From Clostridia bacterium DTU022 (GTDB lineage: Bacteria; Bacillota; Dethiobacteria; DTU022), in contig LFRQ01000063.1 in the NCBI GenBank assembly GCA_001512835.1, positions 25,594 through 89,593 on the forward strand: a DNA stretch of 64,000 nucleotides, in the 5' to 3' direction. The notes beneath the pieces were generated by a model. That model made no database searches and was not told where the DNA came from. It saw nothing but the letters and a program-made list of their open reading frames with translations. Each line of letters begins with the position of its first letter. Within the stretch, counting starts at the first letter, position 1. The position numbers were made by a program, and so were the translations under genes. Below, in pieces: positions 10,474 through 21,114 of this stretch.

Positions 10474-12328
10474 CCTTCTCTCCCCGCTGGTCCAAGCCCC
10501 GCCGCCCCGCCCGGCCTGGATGGATTTTAAGCTGCTGATGGCTACCCAGCTGCGGGTGACCTGGAATAAGCTCCGCCATTGGTCGGCGGCCGTCTGGCTT
10601 GTTGTGGCCTGCATGCTCTTTGGCTTTCTTTCCCTGATGGTCTACCTGGGCGTGGAGGCTTACGGAGCCCTGGGGGCCATGGATCCCGGCATCGCCCGCG
10701 GCTTCCTCTCGCTGCTCTTCCTGGCCGGGATGGCGGCCCAAATATTTTTCGGAATCGCCACTGCTTTCTCCGTCCTCTACATGTCCGAGGATCTGGAGCT
10801 GCTGTTTGTGGCACCGGTATCCACCCGGGCCGTATTTGCCTCCAAGTCCCTGGTGGTAGCTTTCAGCAACTTCCTGCCGGTGGTCTTTTTGATCCTTTTG
10901 CCGGCCCTGTTTTACGGCCTCCTTTTCAGCGCCGGTCCTCTATACTATCTCTGGATCATACCGGTAGTGGGCGGGCTTTGGGCGGTGGGCACCGCCCTGG
11001 CGGAGCTGCTGAACCTGCTGGTGATGCGCATCGTGCCGCCCCACCGCAGCCGGGAAGCGGTGGGTGTTATCGGCGCCGTGGGCGGGATTTTTATTGCCCT
11101 GCTCTTTCAGTTGCCCAACCTGATCATCTCCCGCAGCGAAAGCTTTGATATCAGCGCCTGGATGGCCGGCCAGGGAGAACTGGTGCGGGTCATGGACTGG
11201 TTTCCCTGGGGTTGGAGTTCCCTGGTCCTGGAGGGGGCCGCCACGAGCAGCCACCTCTCCGCCCTGGGCTGGAGCCTGCTGCTGCTCCTTTTGGGTGCGC
11301 TGCTGGTCGGCATCTCTTTTCCGCTGGTGGAGCGCGGTTTTCGCCGGGGCTGGATCTCCCTGAGCGAGGGGGGAGGCGGGCCCAGAAGGAAGACCGCCCG
11401 CATCCCGAGCTCCCAGCGCCGGGGCTTGCGGCGCCGGGAAGACGCCCTTTCAGTGGTGGTTGACGGCGGGACGGCGGAGGCTAGCGGATCCTCCTGGCGG
11501 GGGATGTGGTCCGTGGCCCGCAAAGACCTGCTTTACCTGCGCCGCGATACCCGGGCGTGGTTCGGTTACCTGGTTCCCCTGGTATTTATGCTTTTCTTTA
11601 TTGGGCAGTATCTCTATCTCTCCGTGGAATCGGCGCAAAGCTCGCTATTCTCCGTGCTGCTGATCTATACCATCATGTTTAGCGGCAACATGGCCCTGCA
11701 GTCCTTCGGCCGCGAAGGGGAGGCGGACTGGATTCTGAACAGCGTGCCCCTGTCGGGGTGGCCCGTGGTCTGGGGGAAGCTGCTGGCGGTAATCCTGCCC
11801 ACCGTGCTTTTAATGGAGGCGCTGCTGGCGGGGACGGCGGCCTTGCTCCGCCTCTCATCTTCCATGATTCTGGCCATGGCGGTGGGCGCGGTGTTCCTCT
11901 CCCTGGGTGCCAGCGCCATGGGCTTGAACTTCTCCATCAGGAGCTGCCGCTTTAACCCGGGAAACCCCATGGGCAGCGTTTCAACGGGTGCGACCATGCT
12001 AATGTACCTGCTCAACTTGATTTTTATACTGCTGTTAAGCCTGGGGGTAGCCTACATCTTTCCCCCGGCGGAGCTGATGGCAGTCCTGCCGAAGATACCC
12101 GAAGTCTCCTTTGCCTGGGGCTTCCCCGAAACATTTCTTTACCTGGGCTACCTGCTGACCCGCCCCCTGCTCTGGCCGAAGGCGGCCCGAATCCTGTGGG
12201 GGGTCTTCTTCACCGGCGCCGTCTGGTCGGCGGTCTTCTTCGGCTTCATGGCCTCCACGGTATCCCGAAGCCGGAAAGGATTCCAGGTGGAGATCATCAC
12301 CCCCAAAAAACTCGGGGTCAGGTCTTGA
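10463..12328 (+). CDS. large ABC-2-type polytopic permease (621 aa)
   Basis: Its start overlaps the ATPase stop by 11 nt. It has more than 12 predicted TM helices. Its last four codons and stop (ggg gtc agg tct tga) lie inside a REP-like repeat. Confidence 0.7.
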   Translation: MKNDLLSPLVQAPPPRPAWMDFKLLMATQLRVTWNKLRHWSAAVWLVVACMLFGFLSLMVYLGVEAYGALGAMDPGIARGFLSLLFLAGMAAQIFFGIATAFSVLYMSEDLELLFVAPVSTRAVFASKSLVVAFSNFLPVVFLILLPALFYGLLFSAGPLYYLWIIPVVGGLWAVGTALAELLNLLVMRIVPPHRSREAVGVIGAVGGIFIALLFQLPNLIISRSESFDISAWMAGQGELVRVMDWFPWGWSSLVLEGAATSSHLSALGWSLLLLLLGALLVGISFPLVERGFRRGWISLSEGGGGPRRKTARIPSSQRRGLRRREDALSVVVDGGTAEASGSSWRGMWSVARKDLLYLRRDTRAWFGYLVPLVFMLFFIGQYLYLSVESAQSSLFSVLLIYTIMFSGNMALQSFGREGEADWILNSVPLSGWPVVWGKLLAVILPTVLLMEALLAGTAALLRLSSSMILAMAVGAVFLSLGASAMGLNFSIRSCRFNPGNPMGSVSTGATMLMYLLNLIFILLLSLGVAYIFPPAELMAVLPKIPEVSFAWGFPETFLYLGYLLTRPLLWPKAARILWGVFFTGAVWSAVFFGFMASTVSRSRKGFQVEIITPKKLGVRS

Positions 12329-13443
12329 ATTGTGAATTTTTAGGAAAAATATGTTATATGTTATGGAGTCAGGCCTTGAAATGTGGATTTTGGAAATTTA
12401 TAGTGCCCAATTCTTGGGCATGGGGGCCGATCTTGAAATGTGAATTTTTGCTGTGCTGGGAAAAACAGTAATTTCGATCTTGAAATATGGCTTTTTTGTA
12501 TGCTATGTTATATATGCCATGGCCAGACCGTTGCGTATCGAATACCCCGGGGCGGTCTATCACATAACAACCCGGGGAAATGCCCAGAATAACATATTCC
12601 GGGATGACCAGGATCGCGAAAACTTCCTCGATATCCTCAATGAAACTGTAAAAAGGCACAACTGGCTTTGTCATGCCTATTGCTTGATGAACAACCACTA
12701 TCATCTGCTCATTGAGACCCCCGAAGCCAACCTTTCCCTGGGCATGAGGCAAATCAACGGTGTCTATACCCAGCGTTACAATAAAAGACATAAGCAGGTA
12801 GGACATGTTTTCCAGGGCAGATACAAGGCGATTTTGGTGGATAAAGAAAACTATCTCCTTGAGTTGTGCCGATATGTAGTGCTCAACCCGGTCAGAGCGG
12901 GGCTCGTGGAATTGCCTGAGCACTGGCAATGGGGAAGCTACCTGCCAACAGCCGGATTCACCGAGGTTCCCGAGTTTCTGACGGTGGACTGGATTCTGGG
13001 CATGTTTGGAACCAACAGGCAGGATGCTCAAAGGCATTATCGAGAATTTGTCAGGGTTGGCCTAAGTAAAAAATCGCCTTGGGACAACCTTGACGGACAA
13101 GTTTTGCTAGGCAGCAAGAATTTTGTGGAACAGTTGAAGGATTTGCTTCAAGAAAAAGAGGGCATAAAAGAGATACCGCGGCATCAACGCTTCGCTAGTC
13201 GGCCCACTCTTGAAGAGATCTTTGCCGCCTGCTTAACCAAATACATTAGAAATGAAAGGATTTACGAGGCCCACGTTAAACATGGCTACTCGTTGATGGA
13301 GATTTCGGATTTTCTGGGCATTCACTACTCCACAATCAGCAAGATAGTCCGAAAAATGGTCCCCAAAAGCTAGCAATTCAAGACCTGACCCCATGCCTAA
13401 AATGACGCCCATAATAAAATTCACAATTCAAGACCTGACCCCC
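12314..13443. mobile_element. REP-RAYT unit: a Y1 (IS200-like) transposase gene flanked by inverted REP-like repeats
   Basis: Four reverse-orientation copies of GGGGTCAGGTCTTGAATTGTGAATTTTT lie upstream at 12314-12497. Two forward copies (AATTCACAATTCAAGACCTGACCCC) lie downstream at 13373-13443. Confidence 0.7.
12519..13373 (+). CDS. REP-associated tyrosine transposase (IS200/IS605 TnpA-like Y1 HUH enzyme) with a C-terminal HTH extension
   Basis: The HUH motif HYHLLIE and the catalytic Tyr region (RYVVLNPVRAGLV) are present. The C-terminal extension (EISDFLGIHYSTISKIV) is DnaA-domain-IV-like. ATG 12519 is the likely start, with an alternative GTG at 12453 inside a REP copy. Confidence 0.8.
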   Translation: MARPLRIEYPGAVYHITTRGNAQNNIFRDDQDRENFLDILNETVKRHNWLCHAYCLMNNHYHLLIETPEANLSLGMRQINGVYTQRYNKRHKQVGHVFQGRYKAILVDKENYLLELCRYVVLNPVRAGLVELPEHWQWGSYLPTAGFTEVPEFLTVDWILGMFGTNRQDAQRHYREFVRVGLSKKSPWDNLDGQVLLGSKNFVEQLKDLLQEKEGIKEIPRHQRFASRPTLEEIFAACLTKYIRNERIYEAHVKHGYSLMEISDFLGIHYSTISKIVRKMVPKS

Positions 13444-13791
13444 TTAAATTAAAAAAATATTTTAAATATTCTTATTTTAAAGCAGGAAAAAGAGTCGTTT
13501 TGCCGAATATTTTTTGAGCAGCCAGACCCTAACACCCCAGCATAAGTTCGAGCAGCAAACCTACTTTAAGTATTTTGTCCCCTTACCTCTTAAAACGCCT
13601 TAAATATTAATCTCAATCAAATTATTTGGGTCAAGCATTGAGTTTCGATAACGGTGCTGCTGGACCGGCTATTGTTCTGTACCGGCCCATTGGCGGCATA
13701 GAGTAACTTCAGGGGGTGATCCATGGTCGGCATTGCGAAAGAAAGATGACCGATACAATACCCACTTTATTATATGGAAAGGAGTTTGGAA

Positions 13792-14562
13792 ATGGTCGAT
13801 TGGCCAAAACCGGAAGATGATATTATCGCTATTCCGCTTCATGATCCCATTGTCAGCCGGGAGCAGCACATACAGCAGTACCGGGGGATGGAGGGGATTA
13901 TTTACAAAGAGGCCCGCCTTTTGATTCACCTGTTTACCATTTCGGAAGAGACGGTCAAGGAGCTGCTCCCGGCAGAGCTCTCCCCGGGCGCGCTGGGGAT
14001 GGCGATAGCCCTGGTGGCCGAGTACCCGAACACCTCCATCGGCAGTTACAAGGAGGCGGCCCTGTTCGTGGAATGCCAGTACGAAGACCTGGTGGGTATG
14101 CATACCGCCTACATGTATATCGATCAGATGTACGGCGACCATACCTTGGGCGCCGACCGGGCCCTAATCGCCGGGCGCGAGGTCCTGGGGTTTCCCAAAA
14201 CCCTGGCGGAGATCAACCTTTCCGTGGAAGGAGACCGCTGCCTGGGAACGGTCCGCCGCCGGGGCATGGAGATTATGCGCATCGAGGCCGAGATCAGCGA
14301 TCCGGCCGAGTGGCCCGACCTGGGGACGATGATCAACGTCAGGGCTCTTCCTTCTCCGGATACCAAGGGTTACAGCTACCGGGACATTTGCACCACCAAC
14401 CTGGAATACAAACCCATCTATTCCCTGGCCGGCAGCGGCAAAGTGTTCTTCCCGCCGTCTCACGATCGGATCCGGCGGGTTCAACCCGTGGACCATATTG
14501 CCACCTACTTTACAATAACCGATTTTGTGATCCCCCCGGGCAAAACCTTAAAAGTGCTTTAA
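13792..14562 (+). CDS. acetoacetate decarboxylase (ADC) family protein
   Basis: 256 aa. ATG 13792 follows GGAAAGGAG. The length and sequence pattern fit the ADC/MppR-like fold. Assigned by family-level recognition only. Confidence 0.65.
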   Translation: MVDWPKPEDDIIAIPLHDPIVSREQHIQQYRGMEGIIYKEARLLIHLFTISEETVKELLPAELSPGALGMAIALVAEYPNTSIGSYKEAALFVECQYEDLVGMHTAYMYIDQMYGDHTLGADRALIAGREVLGFPKTLAEINLSVEGDRCLGTVRRRGMEIMRIEAEISDPAEWPDLGTMINVRALPSPDTKGYSYRDICTTNLEYKPIYSLAGSGKVFFPPSHDRIRRVQPVDHIATYFTITDFVIPPGKTLKVL

Positions 14563-16563: not shown

Positions 16564-16799
16564 GGGGAGCAGAAAATAGTCGGGAAAAGGAAGCGCGCCA
16601 GAGGGGAAAAAAGCTGCAGCTTTAGTCTCGGTGAAGTATGTAAAGTGCTCCCTGCGCTTCAAAAAAACTTGGGATCCAACTTGGTGCCTCGGCGGCCCTG
16701 GTGGAGCACAGGGTGAAGAAAAGAAACTTGTCTGAGGGAAAAACCGGCTGCGGCTGCAATCCTGGTCCTGGCAAAGTAAGGGGGGAAGCAAAGGGGCAA

Positions 16800-16840
16800 G
16801 CGGCCACCTTCCGGAAGACGGGGAAGGTGGCCGCTTTATT
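16800..16840 (+). terminator. rho-independent terminator
   Basis: The 13-bp stem GCGGCCACCTTCC / GGAAGGTGGCCGC is followed by TTTATT. Confidence 0.55.
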
Positions 16841-16890
16841 GATAAAAACTCTCCGCCGAGGCCGGGACAGCCCGGCGCCGAGCTGGACAA

Positions 16891-17068
16891 GAAGCACGAA
16901 GAAGACAGCTTTTTTTTGAAAACATCTGCTGTAAAACGCCTGCTCTTTCCGCACTGCCGCCCGGTAAACCTGCAAGAAGAAGAGCTTTTTCTTAAAACAT
17001 CCGTTCATTATTTCCACCCGGAAAGCCCGCCAGTAGAAGGCAGCTTATTTTTAAATTTAAAACCCGTC
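16891..17068. repeat. three imperfect direct copies of a ~35-nt unit, AGAAGRCAGCTTTTTTTTRAAAACATC
   Basis: The copies are at about 16891-16931, 16971-17006 and 17031-17068. They lie in a 580-bp gene-free region upstream of the NERD-helicase gene. Confidence 0.5.
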
Positions 17069-17201
17069 TAACCCCCGTAATTTAATCTTTATCCCCGCAG
17101 TGCCATCGGCTAAAGGAAATTAGCAACTTTTATAGAAGATTATGTCATCAATTTTTGTTTGCATATTTATGGCCAAAACCAATACCCGAGGTGTTCCAGT
17201 C

Positions 17202-19026
17202 ATGGCCAGGATATTTCCCGAAACGCCGCCTGAGGATGGGGTTTCTGCCGAAATTAAGGTCTACAGAGCCCTGGAGAAGCTGACCGATGATTATATTGTC
17301 TTCTACAACCTGGAATGGCTCTGCCGGGGAGAGGCCGCCGCTCTGGAACTGCCCGATTTTATTGAGGGGCCGCCCCCCGTCAAGTACCCCCTGGGGGAAA
17401 TTGATTTTGTTGTGCTGGATCCTCAGTTTGGCTGCTTTGTCATCGAAGTCAAGGGCGGCCTAATTAAGCTGGAAGACGGCACCTGGTTCAGCGTCGACCG
17501 TCAAGGTGAATGGCACCGAATCGACAACCCCATCCTGCAAGCCAGGAAAAACATGTACGCCTTAATCGGCAAACTAAGAGAGATGCCCCGCTTCCGCAAC
17601 CGCTATCTTTATGCCGGCTACGGCGCCATCTTGCCCGATGTGGCCTCCCCCCACCGGGATTTTGGCCTCGGGGCGCCCATTGAACTTTTTGGCTTCGCCG
17701 GCGACCTGGACGATCCCCGGCTCTATTTATCCCGGCTGCGAAGCCAGTGGCTGCACCTCTGGCAGTCAAGGAGCTCGGACCCCGGCAAGAGATATGCCGC
17801 CACCGGGCTTTCCTCCGAGGATTGCGGCTATATCATCCGGGCTCTCGCTCCTTCCATGGAGCTGAGAAGACCGACCTCCGCTGGGGATAAACATCCGGGA
17901 AAGCCAGGAGCACATTGTCAAGCTGACCCGGGAGCAGTTCAAGCTGCTGCAGTACCTTTCCCAGACCAGGAAGGCACTGATCAGCGGCGGTGCAGGCACC
18001 GGCAAGACCATGCTGGCCTTTCAAAAGGCGCTCCTTCTGGCCCGCCAGGGCTTCGACACCTTGTTTACCTGCCCCAACAAGCTTTTGGCTGACTCCCTGG
18101 CTTTCCAGGCGGAAGGGGTGGAGAACCTCACCGTCCTGAACTTTCACCAGCTGTGCTACCGCTGGGGACGGCAGGCCGGCATACCGGACCTGGTGGACCC
18201 CGACGGCCCCGGTCGGGAGCGGATGCTCCAGGAATATTTCGACAAAACCTTGCCCGAAGCGCTGCTCCAGGCTCTGGACCTTATCCCCGCCCGGTTCGAT
18301 GCCATTATCGTGGACGAGGGCCAGGATATGAATGCGGAATGGTGGGATATTCTGAAACTCAGCATGAAGGATTACGATGCCGGCATCTTTTACATCTTCT
18401 ACGACCAGCATCAAACCATCTGGTACAAGGATAACCGGCTGCCCCTGGAGGTGGAGCCCGTTACCCTTGTGGAAAACTTGCGCAACAGCAAGGCCATTTA
18501 CCGCCTGCTGAGCAAATACTACAAAGGCAAAGGCGACTGCTACCAGGGATGCGGCCCCGAAGGCGGCGGCATCGAATACCTGGCCGTGGACGCCGCCGAT
18601 CCCGGCGCCTTGATAAGAGTGCTGAGCAGCCTGCTCCACCGCCTTATCGAGAAGGAAAAAGTCAAGCCGTGCCACATCGCCATTTTGACCGGCACCAGCA
18701 AGGGGAACAGCGCTCTGGCCGGCGCGGCCAAGATCGGCAGATATCCCCTGGTGGACCGCTGTCTCGACGGGGAGGAGCAAATTTTCTTCTCCAGCATCCG
18801 CCGCTTCCGGGGCATGGAAAGGCCCGTTGTCATCCTAATCGAGCTGGAAGAGCTGTTCTCCCCGGACAGGATGCGGGAAACCCTGGGGAAGAGGCTGCAG
18901 TGCAGGCCCGAAGACCTGCCCGGCATCGCCCGGGAAACTCTCTACATCGGCCTCAGCCGCGCCCAAACCCACCTCTACATCATTGGCACCCCCCAAACCA
19001 TCAAAGCCATCCAGGATCAGGCCTAA
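17202..19026 (+). pseudogene. NERD nuclease-related domain fused to a UvrD/Rep-like SF1 helicase, interrupted by one frameshift near 17865-17885
   Basis: In frame 0 the N-terminal NERD domain (EIDFVVLDPQFGCFVIEVKGG) dissolves into Arg/Pro-rich nonsense after ~17870. Frame +1 opens at 17866 and contains the Walker A GGAGTGKT, DEGQD and the helicase C-terminal motifs through 19026. Confidence 0.6.
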
Positions 19027-19274: not shown

Positions 19275-19303
19275 AAGGGGCTGCCCTAAAAGGGCAGCCC
19301 CTT
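19275..19303. terminator. 13-bp perfect hairpin (AAGGGGCTGCCCT aaa AGGGCAGCCCCTT), possibly a bidirectional terminator
   Basis: It lies directly 3' of the minus-strand heptad-repeat gene and lacks a clean U-tract. Confidence 0.45.
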
Positions 19304-19326: not shown

Positions 19327-21114
19327 TTACACCGAACTGCTGCTGCCGGCGGAGGATTTCGCCCAGCCGGCGCGGCCGATAAAGAAGCCCACCACCAGCA
19401 GAATGGCCATGGAAACCAGCCAGATAACCAGGAGCAGCAGGCTGACCTTGTTAAAGCCTGGCTGCAGCTCATCGCTGATCCCGGTCCCGATCTGCTCCAG
19501 CCCGGGCATGATCTTATCCACAATACCGCTCTTAAGCGATTCGATGCCGTCGAGCACACCGGTGTAGATGCCGTCAATAACCAAGCCGAGGCCGTCACTG
19601 ATGCCCGGGTCGCCGCCGGGGTTGGGGCTGAACTCGGGATTGGCCAGGCCGCGGCTGACTTTGCTCAGCCCTTCGACAATCCCTGATTCGCCGGTTGCCG
19701 CTTCGGTCTTGTTAAAACCGAAAAGCATGTTGTCCAGGCCCGGAATCATCTGGGTATCGATGCCTGTCTTCATCTCCTTGAGGCCGGGAACAACCTGAGT
19801 TTTAAGCCCGGCTACGATCTTGTCAAGGCCGGGGGTCATCTCCTGGTCGATGCCGGCATCCAGTTGCTCCAGACCGGGAATTACCTGGGTATTGAGGCCG
19901 CCAAGGATGTTGTTTAGTCCGGGAACCATCTGGGTATCCACGCCCGTCTTCATCGCCTGCAAGCCGGGTATCATATCCTTGTTGATTCCATCCAGCATCT
20001 TGTTTAGTCCGGGAACCATCTGGGTGTCCACGCCCGTCTGCATTAGGTTCAAGCCTGCGGCGATTTGTTCCAGCCCGTCTCGCAGCATCTCCGTAGCCTG
20101 GAGCAAGCCGGGATCCTCGCCCTCTAGCGGGGCGGGGTTGTTTAAAGATTTGTAGACTGTATCCAAAGCTAAAGTCGCAATTAAAATCTTCACCGCATCA
20201 GGCTGATCTGGATCTTTTACTATTCCGATAGCCGTTTCTAAAGCGGTGAGGTTATCTGCCGTCTTTTGATTAATTCTATGGATTCCGTTGATAATTGTAT
20301 CCAGCTCATCGCGAGAACCCAGCCTGGCCAGGACCTGTGCCAATCCCTGGCTAATGCCCGGCTTTTGGGGGTCGGCATTGTCCAGGCCGGCCTTAATTTT
20401 ATTCAGACCTTCCACGATGCCCGACTCCTTGTGCTCGGCTTCCGTCTTATTGAAGCCGTGCAGCACCGCGGCCAGCCCCTGGCTGATACCGGGCTTTTTG
20501 GGGTCGTCATTGTCCAGACCTTGCTTAATCAGGTTCAGACCTTCTACGATGCCCGACTCGCCATCCGTTGCCGCCTTCTTCTTAAAGCCATGGAGGATAT
20601 TGCTCAGCCCGCCGCTGACCGGGCCGGCCAGACCGTTGCGAATCGTGGAAAGACCTTCGATGATTCCAGAATCTTTGTGTTCAGCCTTTGTCTTGGTAAA
20701 GCCTAAGATCATATCTTCCATGCCGGGGCTCATCTTGTCGCTTAGGCCGGAGCGGATGTCGCCCAGCCCAGGGACAACCTGGCCGGCAAGGCCGTCGATG
20801 ATCTTGTTCAATCCCGGCAGCATTTCCGTGTCAATGCCGGTTTTCATGGTCTGCAGGTTCCCGGCGATATCTTCGTCCAGTGCGCTGCCCAGGGTGTCGA
20901 GCCCGCCCACCAGCTGCTCGTTGCCTTGCAGAAGTTCGCCTACCCCGTCCCGGATCTGCTCCGTTCCATCGTAGAGCCGACCCAAGCCGAAAAGAACAAA
21001 ACCCTTTTTATTGGCATCATCCGAAGCGGCGCCGGCAGCGGCAAAAAGAACCAGGCCAATAACCAAAGCGGCGGCAGCAGCTTTGCGGATAACCGCTTTG
21101 TTTGTGATTCTCAA
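19327..21114 (-). CDS. membrane-anchored xxxLxxG heptad-repeat protein (YhgE/Pip-like ectodomain repeats)
   Basis: A TTG start follows AAAGGAGGG. The N-terminal signal-anchor is followed by about 30 degenerate repeats of G(I/V)DTQM(V/I)PGLxx(M/I)(L/I)DG…, and there is a single C-terminal TM. Confidence 0.6.
   Translation of the reverse strand: MRITNKAVIRKAAAAALVIGLVLFAAAGAASDDANKKGFVLFGLGRLYDGTEQIRDGVGELLQGNEQLVGGLDTLGSALDEDIAGNLQTMKTGIDTEMLPGLNKIIDGLAGQVVPGLGDIRSGLSDKMSPGMEDMILGFTKTKAEHKDSGIIEGLSTIRNGLAGPVSGGLSNILHGFKKKAATDGESGIVEGLNLIKQGLDNDDPKKPGISQGLAAVLHGFNKTEAEHKESGIVEGLNKIKAGLDNADPQKPGISQGLAQVLARLGSRDELDTIINGIHRINQKTADNLTALETAIGIVKDPDQPDAVKILIATLALDTVYKSLNNPAPLEGEDPGLLQATEMLRDGLEQIAAGLNLMQTGVDTQMVPGLNKMLDGINKDMIPGLQAMKTGVDTQMVPGLNNILGGLNTQVIPGLEQLDAGIDQEMTPGLDKIVAGLKTQVVPGLKEMKTGIDTQMIPGLDNMLFGFNKTEAATGESGIVEGLSKVSRGLANPEFSPNPGGDPGISDGLGLVIDGIYTGVLDGIESLKSGIVDKIMPGLEQIGTGISDELQPGFNKVSLLLLVIWLVSMAILLVVGFFIGRAGWAKSSAGSSSSV

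What the first reader, a model, noticed from the sequence alone, without database searches (positions are those of the whole stretch)
17202..19026. NERD-domain / SF1-helicase fusion gene broken by a single frameshift
The N-terminal nuclease-related NERD domain and the C-terminal UvrD-like ATPase (GGAGTGKT, DEGQD) lie in two frames that overlap near 17866-17885. The frame-0 continuation is Arg/Pro-rich nonsense, whereas frame +1 reads as a normal helicase N-terminus. NERD-helicase fusions are candidate nucleic-acid surveillance or defence proteins. The frameshift may reflect recent inactivation, a sequencing error at a homopolymer, or programmed slippage.
Basis: partly seen in the sequence, partly recalled or inferred. 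Interest (0 to 1): 0.5.

Follow-up and report, generated by a model that had tools for sequence, protein, structure and literature searches.

The report
Frameshift-broken NERD nuclease–helicase defence-type gene
A single gene for a nuclease fused to a helicase, of a kind usually found in bacterial anti-phage islands, has been knocked out by a small real insertion that every public assembly of this bacterium shares; it is an ordinary recent pseudogene.

Summary
Frame 0 (17202-17868) encodes a NERD nuclease domain. Frame +1 (open 17866-19026) encodes a complete SF1 helicase core (Walker A 17986-18009, DEGQD 18313-18327). No ATG, GTG or TTG precedes Walker A in frame +1. Removing one unit of the tandem GACC-GACC at 17869-17876 restores a 606-aa ORF that aligns without gaps to intact homologues (75% and 61% identity). 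The break is therefore most simply a 4-bp tandem duplication, and it does not lie in a homopolymer.

It is not a sequencing error. The 1885-bp gene is 100% identical, frameshift included, in 10 independent assemblies. The two fragments are on record from dozens of contigs, whereas the repaired protein is absent from a 15-billion-protein collection. There is no slippery site, and the closest relatives are in one frame, so programmed frameshifting is unlikely.

All catalytic residues survive, there is no rate acceleration, and dN/dS is about 0.14-0.18. The lesion is therefore recent. One strain carries a further 21-bp deletion next to helicase motif VI.

The family is known (PADLOC RTasNERD-Hel and NERD+UvrD models; architecture like Nhi). 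No reverse transcriptase or conserved partner lies nearby. Interest is low.

The parts
17188..17193 (+). Possible Shine-Dalgarno sequence GAGGTG, 8 nt upstream of ATG 17202
   Evidence: Read directly from the sequence. ATG 17202 (MARIFPE) aligns with the N-termini of homologues (MAKIFPE, MAKIYPE, MARMFPQ).
17202..17868 (+). N-terminal half in frame 0: NERD nuclease domain plus a helical region, ending in the interdomain linker. Pfam NERD covers residues 13-125 (17238-17576). PD-(D/E)xK-type residues are E66/D68 (17397-17405) and E82/K84 (17445-17453).
   Evidence: Pfam NERD at 44.9 bits (cut-off 22.1). E66, D68, E82 and K84 fall in invariant columns of alignments A1 and A2.
17869..17876 (+). 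Frameshift lesion: the tandem repeat GACC-GACC. Deleting one unit restores ...ELRRPPLGINIRE...
   Evidence: The repaired ORF is 606 aa and aligns without gaps to P0001 (ELKKPPLGVNIRE). It gives the best family-HMM score of all 1-nt and 4-nt repairs, 660.0 bits, but the margin is only 1-2 bits.
17877..18092 (+). Out-of-frame tail of the truncated NERD product (frame 0), with a stop at 18090-18092
   Evidence: Translation. The tail has no similarity to homologues beyond 'ELRRP'.
17866..19026 (+). Helicase half in frame +1. It holds the Q-motif LTREQ, Walker A GGAGTGKT (17986-18009), Walker B DEGQD (18313-18327), NLRNS, RRFRGME and motif VI GLSRAQ. The stop is TAA 19024-19026. The first canonical start, ATG 18010, lies after Walker A. 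The only in-frame start candidates before it are CTG 17881 and CTG 17947.
   Evidence: Annotation pipelines have called 338-, 321-, 359- and 381-aa versions of this half.
19275..19303 (.). Perfect 13-bp hairpin (AAGGGGCTGCCCT / AGGGCAGCCCCTT) between the helicase stop and the convergent gene 19327-21114. It may be a shared terminator.
   Evidence: Inverted repeat I4 and the sequence itself. The simple terminator scan did not flag it.

Best explanation
This is a recently inactivated gene (pseudogene) for a single-polypeptide NERD nuclease / SF1 helicase of about 606 aa. It is carried by an uncultured Bacillota bacterium; the source names include 'Firmicutes', 'Bacillota' and 'Dethiobacteria' MAGs. 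A small insertion shifts the frame by +1 in the flexible linker between the two domains. The insertion is most simply a 4-bp tandem duplication, GACC to GACCGACC, at 17869-17876. Translation from ATG 17202 now gives a 296-aa NERD-only protein with 75 nonsense residues. The helicase half has no ATG, GTG or TTG start ahead of its P-loop, so a full-length enzyme is not made. The following part is inferred from the domains and from the Nhi analogy, and is not shown here. The intact ancestor used ATP-driven SF1 translocation or unwinding to feed foreign or aberrant nucleic acid to the PD-(D/E)xK-type NERD nuclease, acting as a stand-alone defence or surveillance enzyme. The gene was probably acquired horizontally. 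The lesion is fixed in the whole sampled population, and it is young enough that no second disabling mutation has reached the majority allele.
For: Shown by tool results:
- Two frames with NERD and helicase content, and no canonical start before Walker A.
- Removing one GACC unit gives a 606-aa ORF that aligns without gaps to intact homologues P0001 (75%), P0002 (62%), P0004 and P0006.
- The gene is 100% identical over 1885 nt in 10 assemblies from NCBI, JGI and Logan. Their flanks differ from the window by 0-6 SNPs and one 90-bp indel, so the assemblies are not copies of one another.
- The NERD fragment and the helicase fragment are each on record from dozens of contigs. The repaired 606-, 617-, 626- and 618-aa proteins are absent from about 15 billion proteins, and the best intact hit is only 75% identical.
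- All family-invariant residues are retained.
- The relative-rate test gives 36 versus 37 lineage-specific substitutions. dN/dS against P0001 is 0.18 overall and 0.14 downstream of the shift. The gene was therefore under purifying selection for almost all of its history.
- One strain (L022) has an extra 21-bp deletion at 18930-18950 that removes RETLYIG next to motif VI. This fits relaxed constraint.
- In the AlphaFold model of P0001 the site lies in the low-confidence linker, residues 260-263.
- Codon usage looks foreign: 15 of 45 Arg codons are AGA or AGG, against 68 of 447 in neighbouring genes.
- Family assignment: PADLOC RTasNERD-Hel at 1.7e-57 as one stretch across the junction, and NERD+UvrD at 6e-23.
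- Intact homologues lie among toxin-antitoxin, McrBC-like, HD, GIY-YIG and restriction-type genes.
Against: No read-level, transcript or protein data were available, so low-level frameshift read-through or a minority intact allele cannot be excluded. The look-up of the fragments is biased, because it can only find broken alleles; the absence of intact alleles rests. Population diversity is so low (about 0.02-0.1%) that the lack of secondary lesions says nothing about selection. The 4-bp duplication beats 1-nt insertions by only 1-2 bits, and a GACCGACC-type repeat would arise by chance in such a short interval a few percent of the time. A defence function has not been demonstrated for this subfamily, and no phage-related context exists in this window.
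Confidence: 0.85

Rival explanations
1. The gene is split but still functional. The duplication turned the fusion into two polypeptides: a NERD-only protein (17202-18092) and a helicase started at a non-canonical CTG (17881 or 17947). Together they still act as a two-component nuclease/helicase system.
For: The break falls exactly in the flexible interdomain linker. Both halves keep all conserved residues. Annotation pipelines have called 381-aa and 359-aa helicase products with CTG starts that include Walker A. Two-gene nuclease + helicase defence systems exist, for example Hachiman and Gabija (named and in PADLOC).
Against: No ATG, GTG or TTG start lies before Walker A. I saw no well-spaced Shine-Dalgarno sequence before either CTG: GGAG 17858-17861 is 19 nt from CTG 17881. 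Ribosomes translating the NERD frame run across both CTGs and stop only at 18092, after the P-loop. The NERD product carries a 75-residue nonsense tail. One strain has lost part of the motif VI region. None of the eight aligned relatives is naturally split at this point.
Confidence: 0.08
2. Programmed or leaky +1 ribosomal frameshifting occurs at the tandem rare arginine codons AGA-AGA (17865-17870), or the 4-nt duplication reverts. Either route would yield a little full-length enzyme and so act as a throttle or switch on a potentially toxic defence protein.
For: AGA is rare in neighbouring genes, at 1.9 per 1000 codons. Two AGA codons sit directly before the shift. From my own knowledge, tandem rare Arg codons can provoke +1 shifts in E. 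coli. The downstream frame is perfectly preserved.
Against: No P-site codon here can re-pair in the +1 frame; CUG, AGA and CCG followed by A or G are not slippery. There is no 0-frame stop at the site and no homopolymer. AGA-AGA simply encodes the conserved basic pair (KK or RK in homologues), and the whole gene is AGA/AGG-rich. The closest homologues are single-frame, so the feature is not conserved. Two copies of a 4-mer make a very poor phase-variation tract, and all assemblies show two copies.
Confidence: 0.04
3. The frameshift is a sequencing or assembly artefact, and the real gene is intact.
For: A single small indel is the classic signature of such an error. One low-coverage assembly (L021, about 6x) does show extra 1-nt indels, in this gene and in the ADC gene.
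Against: The frameshifted sequence is identical in 10 assemblies from different projects and years, with dozens more contigs carrying the fragments. The site is not a homopolymer. No intact allele is on record.
Confidence: 0.02

Closest known systems
PADLOC 'RTasNERD-Hel' (cluster 485 of Mestre et al. 2022, a NERD-helicase co-located with some UG34 reverse transcriptases; PMC9226505)
   Same: This is the best profile match: 1.7e-57, one stretch over residues 1-549, spanning the junction. The architecture is the same, with an N-terminal NERD domain and a C-terminal helicase.
   Different: No reverse transcriptase was found in the ORFs scanned within about 7-10 kb in the window, nor next to the four intact homologues examined. 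In the paper only 7 of 17 UG34 members carry the NERD-helicase, so the helicase family is much broader than the DRT association. The copy here is also broken.
PADLOC 'C3a187 NERD+UvrD' candidate and NCBI 'NERD domain-containing protein' / DUF2075-type helicases
   Same: NERD + SF1 helicase fusion of about 550-610 aa. Hundreds of homologues at 30-45% identity carry PF08378 plus UvrD/AAA_19/DUF2075 hits.
   Different: The match to C3a187 covers the helicase part only (residues 228-409, 6e-23). No function has been tested for this subfamily.
Nhi (nuclease-helicase immunity, Staphylococcus epidermidis)
   Same: A single protein that combines nuclease and SF1 helicase activities for phage defence, proposed to be activated by phage replication complexes that include SSB (PMC10732053). 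NERD is listed for 'Nhi-like' systems (PMC10952713).
   Different: The PADLOC Nhi model matches only residues 240-307, the P-loop region, at 1.8e-7. This is an analogue or distant relative, not a member.
Schlafen group III proteins (SLFN11, SLFN5, SLFN14)
   Same: They are the closest solved structures by sequence profile (SLFN11 9.9e-12) and by fold (Foldseek 8.9e-18). They also join an N-terminal nuclease to a C-terminal SF1 helicase.
   Different: The N-terminal nuclease is a Schlafen core, not NERD. Identity is only about 15% and TM-scores are about 0.4. These are eukaryotic proteins. The similarity is limited to the helicase core and the overall logic.

Membership tests
NERD domain (PF08378) | Profile match above the Pfam gathering score | tested here: met
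   44.9 bits against a cut-off of 22.1, residues 13-125.
NERD domain (PF08378) | Conserved acidic/lysine catalytic-type residues (GExDF ... ExK) | tested here: met
   E66, D68, E82 and K84 fall in invariant columns of A1, and the equivalent columns are invariant in the 53-sequence alignment A2. Nuclease activity itself cannot be tested here.
SF1 (UvrD/Upf1/Schlafen-like) helicase | Walker A, Walker B (DExx) and the later conserved helicase motifs through motif VI, in order | tested here: met
   GGAGTGKT, DEGQD, YDQHQ, NLRNS, RRFRGME and GLSRAQ are all present and lie in invariant or near-invariant columns. Pfam UvrD-helicase scores 30 bits (cut-off 23) and UvrD_C_2 27.5 bits (cut-off 27.4).
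SF1 (UvrD/Upf1/Schlafen-like) helicase | Two RecA-like domains with an SF1 fold | tested here: met
   The AlphaFold model of the 75%-identical intact homologue P0001 has pLDDT 86. The top Foldseek PDB hits are SLFN11, Upf1 and UvrD, at E 1e-17 to 1e-12. This was tested on the homologue, not on the window protein.
DRT (UG34 reverse transcriptase + NERD-helicase) system | An adjacent UG/Abi-class reverse transcriptase gene | tested here: not met
   The Pfam-scanned ORFs from about 350 to 26762 show no RT. There is no Rfam hit and no tRNA. No RT lies beside P0001, P0002, P0006 or P0010.
DRT (UG34 reverse transcriptase + NERD-helicase) system | The helicase component matches the RTasNERD-Hel profile | tested here: met
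   1.7e-57, profile positions 1-483 of 519.
Nhi | Full-length match to the Nhi profile | tested here: not met
   Only residues 240-307 match, at 1.8e-7.
Gabija (GajA + GajB) | A full-length GajB match and an adjacent GajA (ATPase-TOPRIM) gene | tested here: not met
   Only partial GajB hits (9.4e-8 or weaker, short stretches). No such neighbour was found.
Programmed +1 ribosomal frameshift site | A slippery P-site codon with a stop or hungry A-site codon, conserved among relatives | tested here: not met
   No re-pairing codon and no 0-frame stop at the site. Relatives are in a single frame. Rare AGA-AGA codons are present, but they encode the conserved basic pair.
Pseudogene (fixed disabling lesion) | The lesion is real and shared by independent samples, with no intact allele detectable | tested here: met
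   The closest intact protein is only 75% identical.
Pseudogene (fixed disabling lesion) | No protein product with full function | not testable with these tools
   This needs proteomics or reporter assays.

The most novel reading that the evidence does not exclude
The 4-nt duplication is not simple decay. It acts as a throttle or switch on a potentially self-toxic nuclease-helicase. Rare full-length protein would arise by +1 slippage at the tandem rare AGA-AGA codons or by reversion of the GACC duplication. Alternatively, the linker break created a working two-piece NERD + helicase system started at a CTG.
Probability: 0.05. Interest if true: 0.45.

Novelty: new member of a known kind. Interest (0 to 1): 0.15.

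Why it matters
It matters little beyond annotation. It shows that what public records list as two genes ('NERD domain-containing protein' and 'hypothetical protein / superfamily I helicase / DEAD/DEAH box helicase family protein') is one broken NERD-helicase gene. It also gives a clean example of a defence-type gene lost by a small duplication and then fixed in a near-clonal bacterium that recurs in many public metagenome assemblies, one of them labelled a biogas fermenter. The repaired 606-aa sequence and the 75%-identical intact homologue P0001 could serve for functional tests of this uncharacterised NERD / Schlafen-like helicase subfamily.

Tried and rejected
1. Two scans of metagenome contigs were run, one for the junction with a 0-5 nt gap and one for a 35-mer just downstream as a positive control. 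Both returned nothing. The control failed, so that collection evidently lacks these contigs and the test says nothing about intact alleles.
2. The genome-contig scan returned only the 61%-identical P0002 locus, with no closer genome.
3. Rfam at a permissive E-value (12-24 kb) and a tRNA scan found nothing. There is therefore no evidence of an associated ncRNA or of a tRNA integration site.
4. The promoter/terminator scan found no more sites than shuffled controls, and none on the + strand near the gene.
5. There is no DNA match in plasmids. A single distant hit (30% identity) to an unannotated gut phage contig turned up for P0001, so no mobile-element assignment is possible.
6. A single-sequence PDB search gave no hits; only the profile search reached the Schlafens.
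7. HMM scoring of all possible 1-nt and 4-nt repairs ranks the GACC removal first, but by only 1-2 bits. The exact lesion therefore stays 'most parsimonious', not proven.
8. An HD-domain gene plus a 165-aa gene lies next to both P0001 and P0002, so I considered them as a conserved partner. They are absent from the window and from the P0006 and P0010 contexts. I rejected them as an obligatory partner.
9. The extra +G at 17326 in L021 could be a second lesion. That assembly has about 6x coverage and also has an indel in the neighbouring ADC gene, so I treat it as unreliable.

Full report
**1. What is in the sequence**

On the + strand, frame 0 is open from ATG 17142 to a stop at 18090-18092. The start that matches homologues is ATG 17202 (MARIFPE...), preceded by GAGGTG at 17188-17193.

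Frame +1 is open from 17866, just after TGA 17863-17865, to TAA 19024-19026. It reads PPLGINIRESQEHIVKLTREQ...ISGGAGTGKT...IIVDEGQD...NLRNS...RRFRGME...GLSRAQ.

The first ATG, GTG or TTG in that frame is ATG 18010. That is the codon right after Walker A (17986-18009), so the helicase half cannot be a normal separate gene.

A joined protein gives these Pfam hits:
- NERD at 44.9 bits (cut-off 22.1).
- ResIII, UvrD-helicase and UvrD_C_2, each above its cut-off.

By base composition, a 386-codon open frame has a probability of about 4e-6.

**2. The lesion**

Intact homologues exist: P0001 (646 aa as called, 75% identity, 100% coverage), P0002 (61-62% identity), P0004 (52%) and P0006 (46-47%). They read ELKKPPLGVNIRE or ELRKVPMGLNIRR across the junction.

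The window reads GAG CTG AGA AGA CCG ACC TCC GCT GGG. This contains the tandem repeat GACC-GACC at 17869-17876. Removing one unit gives GAG CTG AGA AGA CCT CCG CTG GGG, that is ELRRPPLG. The result is a 606-aa ORF that aligns to the closest homologues without a gap.

I scored every possible 1-nt or 4-nt repair against a family HMM. This repair ranked first at 660.0 bits, but the margin over 1-nt repairs is only 1-2 bits, because the site lies in a poorly conserved linker.

A 4-bp tandem duplication is therefore the most parsimonious event: it is a single event, the length matches exactly, and the repeat is visible. It is not proven. The site is not a homopolymer.

**3. Real lesion or artefact?**

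The 338-aa helicase fragment was looked up by exact sequence. It lies on 13 contigs, and 10 loci were fetched from NCBI GCA_012521155.1, five JGI metagenomes and four Logan runs.

All 10 loci are 100% identical to the window over the stretches of the 1885-nt gene that each contains, frameshift included. Their flanks differ from the window by 0-6 SNPs, and one has a 90-bp indel in the neighbouring repeat protein. They are therefore independent samples of a near-clonal population.

An exact look-up in about 15 billion proteins found the following:
- The NERD fragment (296, 307 or 316 aa) on about 40 contigs.
- The helicase fragment (321, 338, 359 or 381 aa, differing only in the called start) on about 50 contigs. 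These include NCBI MAG proteins labelled Bacillota and Dethiobacteria.
- None of the repaired intact versions.

The closest intact protein in the homology search is only 75% identical. A sequencing error is therefore rejected. The fragment look-up can only find broken alleles, so the absence of intact alleles rests.

**4. Programmed frameshift?**

A +1 shift would be needed, and the site offers nothing that supports one:
- There is no re-pairing P-site codon, no 0-frame stop at the site and no homopolymer for transcriptional slippage.
- The two closest relatives are in one frame.

One oddity remains. The two codons just before the shift are AGA-AGA. AGA is rare in neighbouring genes, at 1.9 per 1000 codons.

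However, these codons simply encode the conserved basic pair (KK or RK in relatives). The whole gene is rich in AGA and AGG (15 of 45 Arg codons, against 68 of 447 in neighbours). That pattern points to foreign origin rather than to a recoding signal. I keep leaky frameshifting only as a low-probability reading.

**5. Age and selection**

Every family-invariant residue is retained: NERD E66, D68, E82 and K84; Q244; Walker A; DEGQ; N424, R426 and N427; G536; R585.

With P0002 as outgroup, the window lineage has 36 unique substitutions against 37 for P0001. dN/dS against P0001 is 0.18 overall and 0.14 downstream of the shift. Almost all of the divergence therefore accrued under purifying selection, and the lesion is recent.

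Strain variants found within the population:
- One synonymous SNP.
- One missense change (A to T in GYGAILPD).
- A 21-bp in-frame deletion (18930-18950) in L022. It removes RETLYIG next to motif VI, which fits relaxed constraint.
- A +G at 17326 in L021. This is unreliable, because that assembly has about 6x coverage and also has an indel in the neighbouring ADC gene.

Population diversity is too low to test neutrality formally.

**6. What the gene is**

PADLOC profile matches:

| Model | E-value | Region matched |
|---|---|---|
| RTasNERD-Hel | 1.7e-57 | residues 1-549, one stretch across the junction |
| C3a187 'NERD+UvrD' | 6e-23 | helicase part (residues 228-409) |
| Nhi | 1.8e-7 | P-loop region only |
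| AbiO | 3.5e-8 | P-loop region only |
| GajB | 9.4e-8 or weaker | short partial stretches |

RTasNERD-Hel derives from cluster 485 of Mestre et al. 2022. That cluster is co-located with 7 of 17 UG34 reverse transcriptases (PMC9226505).

There is no RT in the window. The neighbours are:
- Upstream: FeoB, ABC transporter genes, an IS200-like Y1 transposase, acetoacetate decarboxylase, acyl-CoA dehydrogenase and an SCP2 protein.
- Downstream: a 595-aa repeat protein, a membrane protein, a phosphodiesterase/sulfatase and an oxidoreductase.

There is also no RT beside the four intact homologues examined. Those lie among ParE/Phd and MazEF toxin-antitoxin pairs, an HD-domain gene, McrBC-like genes, GIY-YIG, restriction-type and WYL genes. 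No partner is conserved in all contexts. The HD gene and its 165-aa neighbour are shared by P0001 and P0002 but are absent from the window.

The closest solved relatives are the helicase domains of the Schlafens. SLFN11 scores 9.9e-12 by profile. It is also the Foldseek top hit, at 8.9e-18, for an AlphaFold model of P0001 with pLDDT 86. Upf1 and UvrD follow. In that model the lesion maps to the low-confidence linker (residues 260-263) between the NERD-containing N-terminal region and the helicase.

**7. Mechanism**

Shown:
- The domain content and the conserved catalytic residues.
- The single disabling lesion, fixed in the sampled population.

Inferred:
- The intact enzyme couples SF1 ATP-driven translocation or unwinding to NERD (PD-(D/E)xK-type) cleavage of foreign nucleic acid. 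It would act as a stand-alone defence or surveillance protein, by analogy with Nhi (PMC10732053; PMC10952713).
- In its present state the locus yields at most a 296-aa NERD protein with a 75-residue nonsense tail.
- A P-loop-containing helicase could arise only from CTG 17881 or CTG 17947. I saw no well-spaced Shine-Dalgarno sequence before either codon.

**8. Verdict**

This is an ordinary, recent, fixed pseudogene of a known but functionally untested NERD-SF1 helicase family. Novelty: a new (broken) member of a known kind. Interest is low.

Noticed in passing
window 16564-17201: The intergenic region upstream of the NERD gene is unusually long (about 640 nt) and purine-rich. It has three copies of a 27-nt motif (16550, 16696, 16766; 70-78% identity) and a perfect 15-bp hairpin at 16798-16836. 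There is no Rfam match.
   Followed up: partly
window 19327-21114 (- strand): A 595-aa protein built of repeats (MxPGL...G motifs). Its only Pfam hit is weak and below the cut-off (LbR_Ice_bind beta-roll). One strain (L004) has a 90-bp shorter allele (565 aa), so the repeat number is polymorphic.
   Followed up: partly
window 17202-19026 compared with neighbouring genes: Codon usage differs from the surrounding genes. AGA and AGG make up 15 of 45 Arg codons here, against 68 of 447 in 15 neighbouring ORFs. This suggests the gene was acquired horizontally.
   Followed up: partly
window 12453-13373 (+), in a low-GC stretch at 12000-14000: A 306-aa ORF with an IS200-like Y1 transposase domain plus an HTH domain, about 4 kb upstream of the broken gene, in a region of 45-50% GC (the window is typically 55-63%).
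   Followed up: no
L012 4525-6395 and L015 4785-6619: An HD-domain protein (439-447 aa, HD + HD_assoc_2) and a 164-168-aa protein lie near both closest intact homologues. They are more conserved between those two contigs (89.5% and 72.6% identity) than the NERD-helicase itself (62%). They have no counterpart in the window.
   Followed up: partly
L022 (corresponds to window 18930-18950): A biogas-fermenter strain carries an additional 21-bp in-frame deletion that removes RETLYIG next to helicase motif VI. The deletion is flanked by the short direct repeat CATCG.
   Followed up: yes
L021 (corresponds to window 14532 and 17326): A low-coverage (about 6x) ENA assembly has 1-nt indels both in the ADC gene and in a G run of the NERD domain. 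These are probably assembly errors rather than real lesions.
   Followed up: partly
window 17833-18780 (- strand): A 315-aa antisense ORF overlaps the helicase half. It looks like a typical shadow ORF in GC-rich coding DNA and was not examined further.
   Followed up: no
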